In this document: in pieces, positions 16,200 through 20,259 of the stretch
Numbering within the stretch: the stretch's first letter is position 1
Layout of the letters: each line of letters opens with the position of its first letter
Assembly (NCBI RefSeq): GCF_038025025.1
Contig: NW_027117348.1
Span: forward strand, 992,001-1,056,000
Reading direction: 5' to 3'
Length of the DNA stretch: 64,000 nt
From: Phyllosticta citribraziliensis
Taxonomy: Eukaryota
Notes under the pieces: model-generated
Database searches by the model: none
What the model saw: only the letters and a program-made list of their open reading frames with translations
What the model was told of the DNA's origin: nothing
Translations under genes and position numbers: made by a program

Positions 16200-17081
16200 T
16201 CAAATCAACCTCCCCAACGCCCTCGCATCGCCGATGCCAAAGTCTTCCATATTCTTTTCACCCCGCCGCGCACCACCCGCAACCTTGACGCCAGCACGCT
16301 TGGGCGCTCGCGGCGGTTTCTTCGCGCCACCGCTGCCACTGCTAGCGCTGCTTCCACCGACCACTGTCGATGTCGGTCTGCTATCCTTATCCTTCTCCCT
16401 CCGCTCGCGCTCCCTCTCCTCTTCCAGCCGCACCTCGACATCGCCCATCGTGACCTCAACCTCGAACTCTTCCCCTCCACTCCTCTCTGCCCGTGCCTCC
16501 GCACCGTCATCTTCCCCTCGTTCTTCCTCCTTCTGTCCCTCATCTCCACCCCCGCCCCTCTCCCCAACCAACCCCTCGATGACCTTGAGTTTCGCCTGCG
16601 CCCGCCTAAGCCGATCATCAAAATCCGCAACGCCGTCCTCCGTATTCCGCGTCTCCAGCGACGCCGCCTCGGCCAGCGCATGCAGCGCATGAACATGCGT
16701 CCGCAGCCGGGCCCGCGGCGGGAGCGCACCCAACCTCTGCCTCTTCCCCTCCTCCTCCTCCTGTCCCTTCTCCATCTTCTTCATCCGACTCGCCGCCGCC
16801 CCCTCATCGTCATCACCCAGCCGCGCACCCCACACGCCCGCCCTCCCCGCCAGCGCGCCCATCGCGAAGAACTTTTCGAACCCCTTCTCGAGTCCAAACA
16901 CGCGGCCCTCGATGCGGCCGGCGCGCGCGCCGTCGGCGCGGCCCAGTGCGAAGCCTTCGTCGTAGTAGGTTGATTCGAGGTTTTGCGGGTGCGAGAAGGG
17001 GTCGGCGTCGTCGTCGGTTGCGCTGGTATTTGCGGCGTTGGTTGAGGGGATTGGTATCGGTATCGGAGTGGGAGGGGCCAT
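16200..17081 (-). CDS. LTO1: Lto1/ORAOV1-like Yae1_N (deca-GX3) protein, Fe-S insertion adaptor for Rli1
   Basis: LESTYYDEGFALGRADGARAGRIEGRVFGLEKGFEKF (repeating GX3) and NTEDGVADFDDRLRRAQAKLKVIE. Confidence 0.8.
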   Translation of the reverse strand: MAPPTPIPIPIPSTNAANTSATDDDADPFSHPQNLESTYYDEGFALGRADGARAGRIEGRVFGLEKGFEKFFAMGALAGRAGVWGARLGDDDEGAAASRMKKMEKGQEEEEGKRQRLGALPPRARLRTHVHALHALAEAASLETRNTEDGVADFDDRLRRAQAKLKVIEGLVGERGGGGDEGQKEEERGEDDGAEARAERSGGEEFEVEVTMGDVEVRLEEERERERREKDKDSRPTSTVVGGSSASSGSGGAKKPPRAPKRAGVKVAGGARRGEKNMEDFGIGDARALGRLI

Positions 17082-17599
17082 AGTGGGCGGTTGGTGGGTG
17101 GGTTGGTTTGTTCGTGAGCGAGGCGAGGGCGCGCTTGCGGTTGTAGCCCAGTGATGTGATTTGTTTTGGGTTTGGTGCAGTAGACAGTGCAGACGGACGA
17201 GCGGACGGTAGAAGGCTTGATGTCGTCGTCTTTGTAGGGCTTGCGAGACGCAGGTTGTGGTGTTTTCGTGGATGCCGACGGCGGCGGGAAAGTTTTGGGC
17301 GGGCCGCGGCCGTTAGCGGGATGGATTGTGGATGGACGGGATGGATCGACGGCCGGGATGATGGCGCGCGGGATCGCGTCATTATTGGTTGGCGTCCACG
17401 CGTAGGGGTCCAGACATCATGACATCCAGACATCACGACGACGGAGCCTCACTTTGATCTTGCAAACGACGCTGGCCAGGTACGCAGAAATCTCGAAAAG
17501 AGGCTAGCAACAGATGTGGACAACATGCCCAGCACCCACCAAACGCATTCTCCCCAAGCGCCCGCATAAAGCGAACAGCTCAATGAAAAAACAAAGTGA

Positions 17600-17848
17600 T
17601 GGTCGCGTCAGCCCCCGGTAGTGCTACGGGAGCGACACAGTGACGAGCAGCGCATGGGCAAGCCCAGAGGCGCACCCGCCCGCGTGCAAAAAGTTGGTTA
17701 ACCAGTAGAAGAGCCCGTAGGCTCAGTTCAGTGGTCAAACTAAACAGAACAGACTGCGTTGGGTGGTTAGCTTTGGCGTAGCAAGTGAGAGGGGGAAGAG
17801 GCGACTCACTACTACACTTGATCTTAGCCAAAGGGCAAAGAGGAGCTG
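17600..17848 (-). ncRNA. U2: U2 spliceosomal snRNA gene, interrupted by a spliceosomal intron (exon 1 ~17848-17810, exon 2 17753-~17600; mature ~193 nt)
   Basis: Minus strand reads AGCTCCTCTTTGCCCTTTGGCTAAGATCAAGTGTAGTA | intron | TCTGTTCT, i.e. the invariant U2 5' core. It continues with stem IIa (GTTTAG/CTGAAC), IIb (GAGCC-TACG-GGCTC), the IIc complement TGGTTAA, Sm site AACTTTTTG (17695-17687), stem III, and stem IV with a GTAGCACTAC loop. Ends are approximate. Confidence 0.95.
17754..17809 (-). other. 56-nt mRNA-type (GT-AG) intron inside U2 snRNA
   Basis: Donor GTGAGT (17809-17804), pyrimidine tract, branch site GCTAAC (17771-17766), acceptor CAG (17756-17754). Removal restores AAGTGTAGTATCTGTTCT exactly. 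Confidence 0.93.
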
Positions 17849-17888
17849 GAGAAAAGAAAAGGTGGTCGAGGGCGGGGGGAGGGCGGGC

Positions 17889-17895
17889 TTTTATA
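17889..17895 (-). promoter_or_regulatory. TATA box of the U2 gene
   Basis: TATAAAA on the minus strand ~45 nt upstream of the inferred U2 5' end. Confidence 0.7.
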
Positions 17896-18100
17896 CTGCT
17901 GGCTCGCGTGTTGCGCCCGCGGCCACGGCCGTTGGGTCTGCGCCTGCGCTAACGGCTTTGGGAGGTGTGAAGCGCCTGCGGGAGCGCCCGCTGGCCGGCG
18001 GAGGGGAGGTGACAGTAGAGGGCAGGCAGAGCATAGGTCGGTGGAGTGATTCCGTGTCATTTTGATTCTGTGTTGTGCTATCCGACGCGCTCGCCCTGGG

Positions 18101-20054
18101 CTACCACATGAAGCGTTGCACGTTTCCGGGCTCCTGCGGCCACTCGAAGCCCCAGTTCAGAAACATGTAGCCCGTCGCCAGGTTGACGAGCAAAAACCAC
18201 GCCGTCTCTGCCCACAGCCACGTCTCATGGCCTGGCGCTTTTGCTCCCTCGCCAGCTGACCCTTCCTCTCTCTTTTCCTTGACTTGAACAGCGCCATCCG
18301 TCTCGCCAATCGGGAAATGCAGCCTCCACATGATCCACGGGACGATGAAGTAGCGCGGCTCCACCAGCGGCGCGGTGGTGAGGTTGAGTGTTGTGGTTGC
18401 GAGCCATACGAGCACGAAGGAGACCTGGCAGCCCTCCTCAACCAGGTCTTCCTTCTTGACGTCCTTGGGAACCGCGACTTCTTTGCGGCCCCCCGACTCG
18501 GCCGATTGCTTCTTTTCTTCTGCTGCTGGCGTGATGGCGAGACGTGGCGGCGAGCCCAGTGCTTGGACTACCAACCATCCGCCTAGAACGTACAAGGGTG
18601 CCGCGAGGTACTTGAGAAGCGGGTACGCGCGCAGGATGCGGAACACGTAGAACACGTAGTGCCGGTTATCGGCGAGGGTGAAGGGGTGGATTATGGTGTT
18701 GAAGTAGACCACAAGCGCGCCAACGAGCGTCCATGCGGCGAGCACGGTGACACGGGGCAGCAAGTCTTTTTGCCCTGGAGTGCTCCACGACCGGAGGCGT
18801 GCAGGTAGAGCAGTTGCGGGGACCAAGGAGAGGACGGCCGAGATGATAGAAGGAGCGAGGATTGGAAAGGAGAAGAAGAGGATGTAGGGCCAGATGTAGA
18901 GCATTTGCGGGAGGTGGAGCGTAGCAATGTGGTTGGACTTGTCGCCTGGGATTGTCAGTCGGATCCAGGGGCTGATGTCGAGTGCTTACCTAGAACTACG
19001 CCGCCGTTCCACACGACAAACGATCCGAACAGAAAGATGAGAATTGCATAAGGTGCAGCTGCAGCAATCACGGCGACTGGATACCGGAGAGCTGCAATAC
19101 CAAGAGACAGCGTCGTCTTGACATAGTCTACTCTCTGTTAGTATTGCATCGACGGCATGAGAGGATGCAACGAACCATCTACCGACGCAAAGCGCACGGG
19201 CTTGTCATAGACGCTCATATTCATCGCACTGATGCGCAGGACGTCGAAAATCGAATCCTCCTTGGCTCCCTCAGGGGGCGGATGAGCAGACTTCTTGAGC
19301 GACTGAACGACTGCCAGCCCGGCAGGAAAGACGGCGACCCAAAAGATGTTGGTCTGCCGAAAAAATAAAGCAGCAACGCCAATCAAGACGGTCACGACAG
19401 CAGAAGCCGTCTTGCCAGCCTTCTTTTGCTGAGTTTTCAGTGCGTGGTGGTAGCTCAGCAGGACGAAGAGAGTCGAAGGTACATCGGTGTAATAGAGTCC
19501 CAGGAAAAAGAACAAGGGCGGGAAGAGACAGATGTTGACGGCGGTGTGGACGGCGCTTGTGAAGAGGGTGACGTCTCTCTTGTTGTATGCAAAATTTGTC
19601 GGCGATGCGTTTGTCGTCTTGAGGAGCCCGTAGAGCCTGGTGAGGATGGAAAATGAAATTTGCGCAAGGAACAGGGCCAGAGAGCAATTCAAAGCGCGCA
19701 GCACAAAGACATCACATCGGCCTGTGATTCTGAATACGACATAGGACAACAAATATCTTGAAGAATCAGCAAGAGAGTTTTTGACAGCACGTTTGATCGA
19801 CGTACAAGCCGGGAGGCGTAGTAATTTTGGGATCCCATTTGCCAAACTCGCCAGCGCAGTACACTTGGGCTTGACCGACGTGAAAGACCTCGTCCTTAAA
19901 TTTGCATTAGTAGACATTTTTGCCTGCTCATCCGCCAACTCACGAGATACGGCTCCGGCACCCTGTCCGAGATTTTGGACAGCCATTCCCACGACGGAAT
20001 CAGCAGCAGCGTGAAGCCCAGCGCCAGGACCTTGAAAACGGCAGGAGGGTCCAT
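18101..20054 (-). CDS. ALG10: Dol-P-Glc alpha-1,2-glucosyltransferase Alg10/Die2, multi-exon
   Basis: [119 protein letters not shown]. Confidence 0.95.
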
Positions 20055-20259
20055 GGCGAGACAAATCGGACTTTTCAATTGACTCGCCCACAAGACAAAA
20101 ACGCAAAGGACGTTGCGAGAAAAGGTCGATCAGCGAGCTACAAACACCACGAAATCCGCCTCGGCAAAAGGCCGGCGGACGGACCAATGGCGCGTCGGCC
20201 ATCGACTCGTCGCGTCTTCCCAAATCTACTGTACACGCGCAACCATCTTCCCTCTCACC

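What the first reader, a model, noticed from the sequence alone, without database searches (positions are those of the whole stretch)
17600..17848. U2 snRNA gene interrupted by a spliceosomal intron exactly at the branch-point recognition sequence
SEEN: the invariant U2 string GGCTAAGATCAAGTGTAGTA-TCTGTTCT is split immediately after GUAGUA by a 56-nt insert. The insert has a GTGAGT donor, a pyrimidine tract, a GCTAAC branch site and a CAG acceptor, like the mRNA introns in this window. A TATA box, an Sm site and stems I-IV are present. KNOWN: mRNA-type introns in snRNA genes occur in Schizosaccharomyces pombe U6 and in basidiomycete yeasts (Rhodotorula hasegawae U2, near the branch-recognition region), and are usually attributed to reverse splicing into snRNA at the catalytic centre followed by reverse transcription. 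INFERENCE: this looks like such an insertion in a filamentous ascomycete. U2 would be needed to mature its own precursor, a possible feedback loop on spliceosome supply. Covariance-model annotation may miss or truncate the gene.
Basis: partly seen in the sequence, partly recalled or inferred. Interest (0 to 1): 0.9.

Follow-up and report, generated by a model that had tools for sequence, protein, structure and literature searches.

The report
Intron-split U2 spliceosomal RNA gene
A fungal-type gene for U2, the spliceosome RNA that pairs with intron branch points, is itself split by an ordinary-looking 56-base intron right after that pairing sequence; fifteen environmental U2 genes are split at the same spot, so it is a real, inherited feature of a kind first reported in a yeast in 1993.

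Summary
Rfam finds one full-length U2 snRNA gene on the minus strand (17847..17597, 71.2 bits). It is interrupted at 17809..17754 by 56 nt with GTGAGT, GCTAAC (branch A 13 nt from the end) and CAG. The insert sits exactly between GUAGUA and UCUGUUCU.

A metagenome scan found 15 more U2 loci with an insert at this same site. The inserts are 46-130 nt, unrelated in sequence, and all carry donor, branch and AG signals. In those genes the exons are far better kept than the inserts, and 18 of 31 predicted exon-2 pairs show compensatory changes. Some of them carry two or three introns. The insert therefore has to be removed to give a working U2.

Splicing of this copy was not seen. The laid runs show the locus only in uncut form, and a run of the same organism label also holds a second U2 type in which GTAGTA runs straight into exon 2.

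The kind is known: the Rhodotorula hasegawae U2 intron of 1993. Its spread at this site in ascomycete-like U2 genes turned up in none of my literature searches. I rate it a new member of a known kind, of moderate interest.

The parts
17597..17847 (-). U2 snRNA gene (precursor span, 251 nt; 195 nt after removal of the insert)
   Evidence: RF00004, 71.2 bits, model 1-192, E 4.8e-12
17810..17847 (-). Exon 1 (38 nt): stem I, the region that pairs with U6, and the branch-point recognition GUAGUA at its very end
   Evidence: cmscan alignment of model positions 1-38 with high posterior; sequence
17754..17809 (-). 56-nt spliceosomal-type intron: donor GTGAGT 17809..17804, branch GCTAAC 17771..17766 (branch A 17767, 13 nt from the last intron base), acceptor CAG 17756..17754
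   Evidence: Sequence; parse; one of 17 strict intron-motif matches in the window against 4.18 expected; same site occupied in 15 of 15 metagenome U2 loci
17597..17753 (-). Exon 2 (157 nt): starts UCUGUUCU; stems IIa and IIb, Sm site, two 3' stem-loops
   Evidence: alignment A1 and consensus fold with 18 of 31 pairs showing compensatory changes
17687..17694 (-). Sm-type site ACUUUUUG
   Evidence: Sequence; aligned with the T-run column of the 11 other exon-2 sequences
17888..17895 (-). TATAAAAG, 41-48 nt upstream of U2 position 1, followed by a C/T-rich spacer
   Evidence: Sequence; a TATA or TACTTAA element at about the same offset, and the same kind of spacer, in most loci
17580..17589 (-). 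TTTTCATTGA just downstream of the U2 3' end: candidate 3'-end formation signal (inference)
   Evidence: TTCATTGA, TTCATCGA or TTCATTAA found 155-226 nt after the exon-2 start in the window and in 12 of 15 loci

Best explanation
This is a U2 small nuclear RNA gene on the minus strand with a TATA-type upstream element. It is interrupted between nucleotides 38 and 39 (GUAGUA|UCUGUUCU) by a 56-nt U2-type spliceosomal intron. The primary transcript cannot work as U2, because the insert splits the invariant branch-binding region. Already assembled spliceosomes, with mature U2 from earlier rounds or from another U2 gene, must remove the intron. Removal restores GGCUAAGAUCAAGUGUAGUAUCUGUUCU, after which Sm-core assembly and 3' trimming follow as for any U2.

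The intron site is shared with many other fungal-type U2 genes. So the intron is either old and vertically inherited, or this phosphodiester is a preferred target, as expected if an excised intron once reverse-spliced into U2 next to the catalytic centre and was copied back into DNA.

Shown here: the anatomy, the CM match, the shared site, the conservation of exons against drifting introns, and covariation in the stems. Inferred: that this copy is transcribed and spliced in vivo, what it adds to the U2 pool, and how the intron arose.
For: (1) A full-length RF00004 hit whose alignment breaks exactly at the insert. The invariant string is restored on removal.
(2) Canonical donor, branch and acceptor with fungal spacing. 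The insert is one of 17 strict intron-motif matches in the window, against 4.18 +/- 1.93 in shuffles.
(3) A metagenome scan with the exon-1 end plus GT gave 15 loci. All 15 have AG directly before TCTGYTCT and an NCTRAY branch 9-18 nt from the end. Insert lengths are 46-130 nt. Over window plus loci the donors are GTAAGT 9, GTGAGT 3 and 4 other GT-starting hexamers.
(4) 13 of the 15 loci pass the RF00004 gathering score, at 51.8-99.2 bits.
(5) Exons are kept and introns are not. L001/L002: exon 1 100%, exon 2 98.7%, intron 73.0%. L008/L012: 100, 95.7, 73.0. L003/L011: exon 2 94.8, intron 37.7.
(6) In the 12-sequence exon-2 alignment, which includes the window, 18 of 31 predicted pairs keep pairing through changes on both sides. 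The window's copy fits the consensus.
(7) The window shares a TATA element, a C/T-rich spacer and the downstream TTTTCATTGA with the other loci.
(8) A contig in run X4 (organism B, mixed) covers the exon-2/insert boundary. Within 17757-17804 it shows 5 substitutions, 10 inserted letters and 1 deleted letter, so the insert is present but drifting in a relative (tables 3 and 4).
Against: No RNA evidence shows this copy being spliced. The contigs that are 100% identical to the window carry the insert uncut: X2 at 17704-17864 and X1 at 17761-17893. Both are about read length and run upstream of U2 position 1, so they could be precursor, read-through from the ALG10 gene upstream on the same strand, or trace DNA.

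Run X1, of the same organism label, holds a 1696-letter contig of a second U2 type. It has 17 other letters and 8 gaps over 17601-17753, and beyond 17753 it runs straight into TACTACAC... (the GTAGTA end on the other strand) with no insert (tables 7 and 8). The organism therefore has, or the sample contains, another U2 source, and this copy need not be the main one.

The AG before exon 2 and the GT after exon 1 were demanded by my own patterns. Genes lacking them, or lacking the intron altogether, could not be counted. The kinds of runs X1 and X2 are guesses by the tool.
Confidence: 0.78

Rival explanations
1. The copy is a minor, silent or decaying paralogue. The cell's U2 comes from another gene (the second type seen in run X1), and the intron-bearing copy adds little or nothing.
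For: A second U2 type with GTAGTA contiguous to exon-2-like sequence occurs in a run of the same organism label. The only contigs identical to the window at this locus carry the insert. One of the 15 metagenome loci, L009, is a decayed fragment: the 5' part, the intron and about 15 nt of exon 2 with no 3' domain, and no Rfam hit.
Against: The window's copy keeps every invariant string, all stems, the Sm site, the TATA element and the downstream motif. Intron-bearing U2 genes as a class are under purifying selection. The second type carries T where all 16 intron-bearing genes have A (GATCAWG was allowed by my pattern, and 15 of 15 hits have A), so it is the less canonical of the two. Contig depth cannot rank genes (tool text).
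Confidence: 0.17
2. The insert is not an intron but a chance or mobile insertion that killed the gene, or an expansion that stays in the RNA.
For: No spliced product was seen.
Against: Donor, branch and acceptor are all present with correct spacing. The insert lies exactly at a junction that restores an invariant sequence. Fifteen other loci carry unrelated inserts at the same phosphodiester, all with splice signals, inside well-conserved and covarying U2 exons. An insert retained in the branch-binding region would be incompatible with established U2 function (general knowledge).
Confidence: 0.03
3. An add-on to the best explanation rather than an alternative: the intron is kept because it ties U2 output to splicing capacity (homeostatic feedback), or keeps unspliced pre-U2 inert.
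For: The logic of the arrangement. In the centroid fold of the precursor, GUGUAGU (31-37) pairs with intron GCUACGC (66-72), and the 5' splice site GUGAG (39-43) pairs with CUCAC (59-63). The whole precursor has z = -2.63 against 200 shuffles. The review PMC5855946 (section 14 read) raises the same idea for U6 paralogues with introns.
Against: No data bear on regulation. By eye, only L010 also carries a complement of GUAGUA in its intron. Another U2 source would blunt any loop. Introns can persist neutrally.
Confidence: 0.15

Closest known systems
mRNA-type intron in the U2 snRNA gene of the basidiomycete yeast Rhodotorula hasegawae (Takahashi et al. 1993, Mol Cell Biol 13:5613; cited in PMC5855946; the paper is not held)
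   Same: A spliceosomal intron inside a U2 gene, in the conserved 5' region by the branch-site recognition sequence. It was read as a trace of reverse splicing near the catalytic centre. From recall of the abstract, not seen here: about 60 bp, 'immediately downstream of the branch site recognition domain'.
   Different: The host here is different: GC-rich, fungal-type, with short GTRAGT/CTAAC introns, and not identified. I could not check whether the phosphodiester is identical. Here the site is shared by 15 further diverse loci, some with two or three introns, which that single-species report does not cover.
Spliceosomal introns in fungal U6 snRNA genes (S. pombe, Tani and Ohshima 1989; survey by Canzler et al. 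2016, as summarised in PMC5855946 section 14; the survey itself is not held)
   Same: mRNA-type introns in a catalytic-core snRNA. They cluster near functional sequences, carry canonical splice signals, are otherwise unconserved, and reach up to four per gene. Some are shared by descent and others are lineage-specific.
   Different: U6 is a Pol III gene and U2 a Pol II-type gene. The site here is in the branch-binding region of U2. Canzler et al. [quoted passage not shown]
Introns in fungal U3 snoRNA genes (Myslinski et al. 1990; Canzler et al. 2017, PMC5832005, passages read)
   Same: An independently transcribed, TATA-driven small RNA gene whose product needs the pre-mRNA splicing machinery to mature.
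   Different: U3 is not part of the spliceosome, so it has neither the self-reference nor the link to the catalytic centre.

Membership tests
U2 spliceosomal RNA (Rfam RF00004) | Covariance-model score at or above the family's gathering score over the full model | tested here: met
   71.2 bits against 46, model 1-192, E 4.8e-12
U2 spliceosomal RNA (Rfam RF00004) | Invariant 5' string with GUAGUA followed by UCUGUUCU in the mature RNA | tested here: met
   Exon 1 ends GTAGTA at 17810 and exon 2 starts TCTGTTCT at 17753. The string is contiguous only if 17809..17754 are removed.
U2 spliceosomal RNA (Rfam RF00004) | Sm site and conserved stem-loops supported by covariation | tested here: met
   ACTTTTTG at 17694..17687. 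18 of 31 consensus pairs in exon 2 have compensatory changes across 12 sequences, the window included.
U2 spliceosomal RNA (Rfam RF00004) | Stable, capped RNA present in spliceosomes | not testable with these tools
   No raw RNA reads were offered. Contigs cannot show ends or levels.
Spliceosomal (mRNA-type) intron in an snRNA gene | GT-AG boundaries with the host's donor consensus, and a branch site at the usual distance | tested here: met
   GTGAGT, GCTAAC with the branch A 13 nt from the end, and CAG. The same strict motif occurs 17 times in the window against 4.18 expected, at lengths of 36-103 nt.
Spliceosomal (mRNA-type) intron in an snRNA gene | Precise removal restores a conserved snRNA sequence, and the site is shared with or paralleled in relatives | tested here: met
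   The same site is occupied in 15 of 15 loci found with the exon-1-end-plus-GT pattern.
Spliceosomal (mRNA-type) intron in an snRNA gene | The spliced product is observed in RNA | tested here: inconclusive
   No contig joins 17810 to 17753 in the 4 runs laid. The tool leaves out human-like records, and a 31-letter identity with human U2 (recalled sequence) would arise only in the spliced form, so this blank says nothing.
Spliceosomal (mRNA-type) intron in an snRNA gene | The intron-bearing gene is the functional (sole or main) gene, as for S. pombe U6 | tested here: inconclusive
   No genome is held. A second U2 type without the insert is in run X1 of the same organism label.

The most novel reading that the evidence does not exclude
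The intron at GUAGUA|UCUGUUCU is not a curiosity of one yeast. It would be an old feature, conserved in position, of U2 genes across a wide span of fungi, with further introns at other U2 sites (up to three per gene). U2, like U6, would then carry a fossil record of reverse splicing around the catalytic centre. In these fungi the supply of U2 would depend on splicing itself, a built-in homeostatic loop. This has not been surveyed systematically in any paper my searches reached.
Probability: 0.3. Interest if true: 0.75.

Novelty: new member of a known kind. Interest (0 to 1): 0.5.

Why it matters
Introns inside spliceosomal RNAs were early evidence that those RNA regions sit at the catalytic centre and that splicing can run backwards. 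An intron exactly behind U2's branch-pairing hexamer, shared by many environmental fungal U2 genes alongside further U2 introns, extends to U2 the picture that genome surveys have so far documented for U6 and U3. It gives a concrete set of sites to compare with spliceosome structures. It warns annotators that CM hits can drop exon 1, as 5 of 13 did here. It also offers a testable case of a spliceosome part whose production needs the spliceosome.

Tried and rejected
(1) Whole genome: none is held for this window. U2 copies could not be counted, and the window itself has a single Rfam hit.

(2) Sequencing runs: no RNA holder is listed, and the kinds of X1, X2 and X5 are the tool's guesses. In the 4 runs laid (X1, X2, X4, X5), no joint 17753 to 17810 was reported, and the 3' part of exon 2 (17597-17703) has no 100%-identical cover in X1 or X2. 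I draw nothing from these blanks. All runs are contigs, the tool leaves out human-like records, and only the spliced form would hold a long stretch identical to human U2 (recalled sequence). I do not use contig depths to rank the two U2 types, as the tool instructs.

(4) Literature. The seven searches that ran found no paper on U2 introns in ascomycetes. A further search only located PMC2396436, whose passages cite Takahashi solely in the reference list. Takahashi 1993 and Canzler 2016 are not held, so the exact R. hasegawae site rests on my recall. PMC2377427 (passages) lists A. fumigatus cDNA clones for U1, U5 and U6 only.

(5) Earlier findings of this scan: nothing on this genome or on look-alike DNA. 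The word searches gave only unrelated U2 genes and one note naming the same known class.

(6) The upstream motif CCGTTAGCGC (17946-17955, also in L010) lies at a different offset in the two loci, so I dropped it as a promoter element.

(7) The organism's identity was not determined. 'Fungal-type' rests on the intron signals, the resemblance of this U2 to the loci and the neighbouring ALG10 and Yae1_N genes.

(8) Rows dropped before the exon-2 alignment: L005 and L006 (second intron inside exon 2), L009 (decayed) and L010 (cut by the contig end). That left 11 of the 15 loci plus the window.

Full report
WHAT IS THERE. cmscan of the whole window against Rfam gives a single hit above gathering score. 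It is U2 (RF00004) on the minus strand, 17847..17597, model positions 1-192, 71.2 bits against a gathering score of 46, E 4.8e-12. Read on the minus strand, the gene starts AGCTCCTCTTTGCCCTTTGGCTAAGATCAAGTGTAGTA (17847..17810). Then come 56 nt (17809..17754) that start GTGAGT, contain a C/T-rich stretch and GCTAAC (17771..17766), and end CAG. The sequence continues TCTGTTCT... to 17597. In the cmscan alignment the eight model positions UCUGUUCU after GUAGUA are left empty and the alignment jumps; those eight letters stand in the window directly behind the insert. TATAAAAG lies 41-48 nt upstream (17895..17888). An Sm-type ACTTTTTG lies at 17694..17687. TTTTCATTGA lies just past the 3' end (17589..17580).

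IS IT MORE THAN CHANCE. A strict intron motif (GTRAGT, then NCTRAY, then YAG, with fungal spacing) occurs 17 times on the two strands of the window, against 4.18 +/- 1.93 in 50 block shuffles. The U2 insert is one of the 17, and its 56 nt fall within their range of 36-103 nt. It also sits exactly where its removal restores an invariant string.

RELATIVES. I scanned the metagenome collection for the end of exon 1 followed by GT (pattern GGCTWAGATCAWGTGTAGTAGT). The scan gave 15 loci from 8 data sets. In all 15 an AG stands directly before TCTG[TC]TCT, and an NCTRAY branch motif lies 9-18 nt before the end of the insert. The inserts are 46-130 nt long. Over window plus loci the donors are GTAAGT in 9, GTGAGT in 3, and GTAGGT, GTGAGC, GTGAGA and GTTAGT in one each. 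The acceptor is YAG in 15 and AAG in 1. My patterns demanded the GT and the AG, so the scan says nothing about how many U2 genes lack the intron. What it shows is that the same phosphodiester is occupied, by otherwise unrelated sequence, in many different U2 genes.

Thirteen of the 15 loci pass the RF00004 gathering score, at 51.8-99.2 bits. L009 is a decayed fragment and L010 is cut by its contig end. In 5 of the 13 (L001, L006, L007, L011, L015) the reported hit begins inside or after the intron and so omits exon 1.

SELECTION. In close pairs the exons are kept and the inserts are not:
- L001/L002: exon 1 100%, exon 2 98.7%, insert 73.0% (122 against 104 nt).
- L008/L012: 100, 95.7 and 73.0.
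- L003/L011: exon 2 94.8, insert 37.7.
- L004/L015: 100, 88.2 and 54.7.

I aligned exon 2 of the window and the 11 loci whose exon 2 is uninterrupted; L005, L006, L009 and L010 were left out. The RNAalifold consensus has 31 pairs, and 18 of them keep pairing through changes on both sides. Stem IIb, which the consensus fold missed, also covaries by eye in the alignment (GAGCC/GGCTC, CCTAG/CTAGG, CGGGT/ACCCG and others). The window's copy fits all of this. It also shares a TATA element at a similar offset, a C/T-rich spacer and the downstream TTCATTGA motif, which 12 of the 15 loci have. Intron-bearing U2 genes therefore evolve as working U2 genes whose insert is free to drift, which is what an intron does.

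MORE INTRONS. Some loci carry further introns:
- L005 has three in all. Beside the one behind GUAGUA, it has a 54-nt GTTCGT..CAG intron after AGCUCUC and a 50-nt one after UCUGUUCUUUUUAG.
- L006 has a second intron of 74 nt at that last site.
- L007 has a 54-nt GC-AG intron after AGCUCU.
- L010 shows GTAAGT after CUCUGAAAC before its contig ends.

A loose end in run X4 (at 17824, table 7) reads like a branch motif and an AG directly before ATCAAG. This hints at yet another site, which I did not verify.

RNA AND DNA RUNS. No whole genome is held. The run search listed no holder on record as RNA. I laid X1 and X2 (organism A, 100% identical to the window where they cover it), X4 (organism B, evidently mixed) and X5 (organism C) on 16800-18600. 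Contigs of X2 (17704-17864) and X1 (17761-17893) carry the insert uncut. Both are about read length and reach upstream of U2 position 1, so they may be precursor, read-through from the ALG10 gene that ends upstream on the same strand, or trace DNA.

A contig in X4 crosses the exon-2/insert boundary. Within 17757-17804 it shows 5 substitutions, 10 inserted letters and 1 deleted letter, so a relative keeps the insert while its sequence drifts.

A 1696-letter contig in X1 is a second U2 type. It has 17 other letters and 8 gaps over 17601-17753. Its continuation beyond 17753 begins TACTACAC..., that is GTAGTA on the gene's strand, with no insert. Its other end runs into flank with a TCATCGAG motif like the 3' box. 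X5 holds a contig with the same central differences. So either the same organism or its sample contains another U2 source that is contiguous at this junction, whether an intronless gene or a spliced product. This second type has T at a position (GATCAWG) where all 16 intron-bearing genes have A, although my pattern allowed T.

No contig joining 17810 to 17753 of the window's own copy was reported. I treat that as uninformative: the runs are contigs only, and the tool leaves out human-like records.

HOW IT MOST LIKELY WORKS. The gene is transcribed from its TATA-type promoter. The 251-nt precursor cannot act as U2, because the branch-binding region is split. Existing spliceosomes remove the 56 nt, and the 195-nt RNA then matures like any U2. 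These steps follow from the anatomy and from the established roles of the GUAGUA region; none was observed. The centroid fold of the precursor pairs GUGUAGU with an intronic GCUACGC and the 5' splice site GUGAG with CUCAC. This could keep the precursor inert or could be chance; only L010 shows anything similar by eye.

The shared site speaks for inheritance from a common ancestor or for a hot spot. [quoted passage not shown] Neither can be tested here.

WHAT IS KNOWN. The review PMC5855946 (passages and section 14 read) cites Takahashi et al. 1993 for an intron in U2, and Takahashi et al. 1996 for U1 and U5, all in Rhodotorula hasegawae. It cites Canzler et al. 2016 for many unrelated U6 introns in fungi, up to four per gene, and asks for experimental validation. 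Canzler et al. [quoted passage not shown] The searches listed under Tried and rejected found nothing on U2 introns in ascomycetes. The 1993 paper and the 2016 survey are not held. That the R. hasegawae intron lies 'immediately downstream of the branch site recognition domain' is my recollection of its abstract. Supplements of surveys I could not see may already list such U2 introns.

VERDICT. The reading as a spliceosomal intron in a U2 gene is well supported by comparison, but splicing has not been seen. The copy's share of the cell's U2 is open, because a second U2 type exists. The kind is known, so this is a new member of it. What adds value is that the site is widely shared and that U2 genes with two or three introns exist. 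Interest 0.5.

Noticed in passing
L005:537-590 and 688-737; L006:461-534; L007:536-589; L010:1-36: U2 genes with two or three spliceosomal-type introns. The extra sites lie after AGCUCU(C) near the 5' end (one of them a GC-AG intron), after UCUGUUCUUUUYAG, and after CUCUGAAAC (this last one cut by the contig end).
   Followed up: partly
window 17580-17589 (-), and 12 of 15 loci: A conserved TTTTCATTGA-like motif a few bases past the U2 3' end, often followed about 30 nt later by GAGGAAGAA-like sequence. It is a candidate fungal snRNA 3'-end signal that I could not place in the literature.
   Followed up: partly
run X1, contig laid on window 17601-17753: A second U2 type in a run of the same organism label. 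It differs by 17 letters and 8 gaps, is contiguous across the GUAGUA|UCUGUU junction, has T in GATCAWG where all intron-bearing genes have A, and its contig includes flank on both sides.
   Followed up: partly
run X4, loose end at window 17824 (table 7): A contig that matches from AGATCAAG onward but is preceded by a GCTAAT motif and ...ACAG. This may be a U2 gene with an intron inside the region that pairs with U6.
   Followed up: no
L009:524-640 region (-): A decayed fragment: a U2 5' part, the intron with intact signals and about 15 nt of exon 2, then unrelated AT-rich sequence. It looks like a DNA-level pseudogene copy of an intron-bearing U2 gene, and has no Rfam hit.
   Followed up: no
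window 17776-17817 (-), precursor positions 31-72: In the centroid fold of the precursor, the branch-recognition GUGUAGU pairs with intronic GCUACGC, and the 5' splice site GUGAG pairs with CUCAC. L010's intron also holds CTACTAC.
   Followed up: partly
L001-L004, L008, L012, L015, about 90-130 nt upstream of U2: Repeated TCACATGA(T/C)C motifs followed by CTCGCTTAA..CCGCCAAGCC upstream of one group of the metagenome U2 genes. This is probably a lineage-specific snRNA promoter element, and it is absent from the window.
   Followed up: no
window 16200-17081 (-), 18101-18904 and 19138-20223 (-): The neighbours lie on the same strand as U2: a Yae1_N-domain ORF downstream and a split DIE2/ALG10 glucosyltransferase gene upstream (Pfam). 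U2 sits in the spacer of about 760 nt between them, judged from the contig ends at 17278 and 18041.
   Followed up: partly
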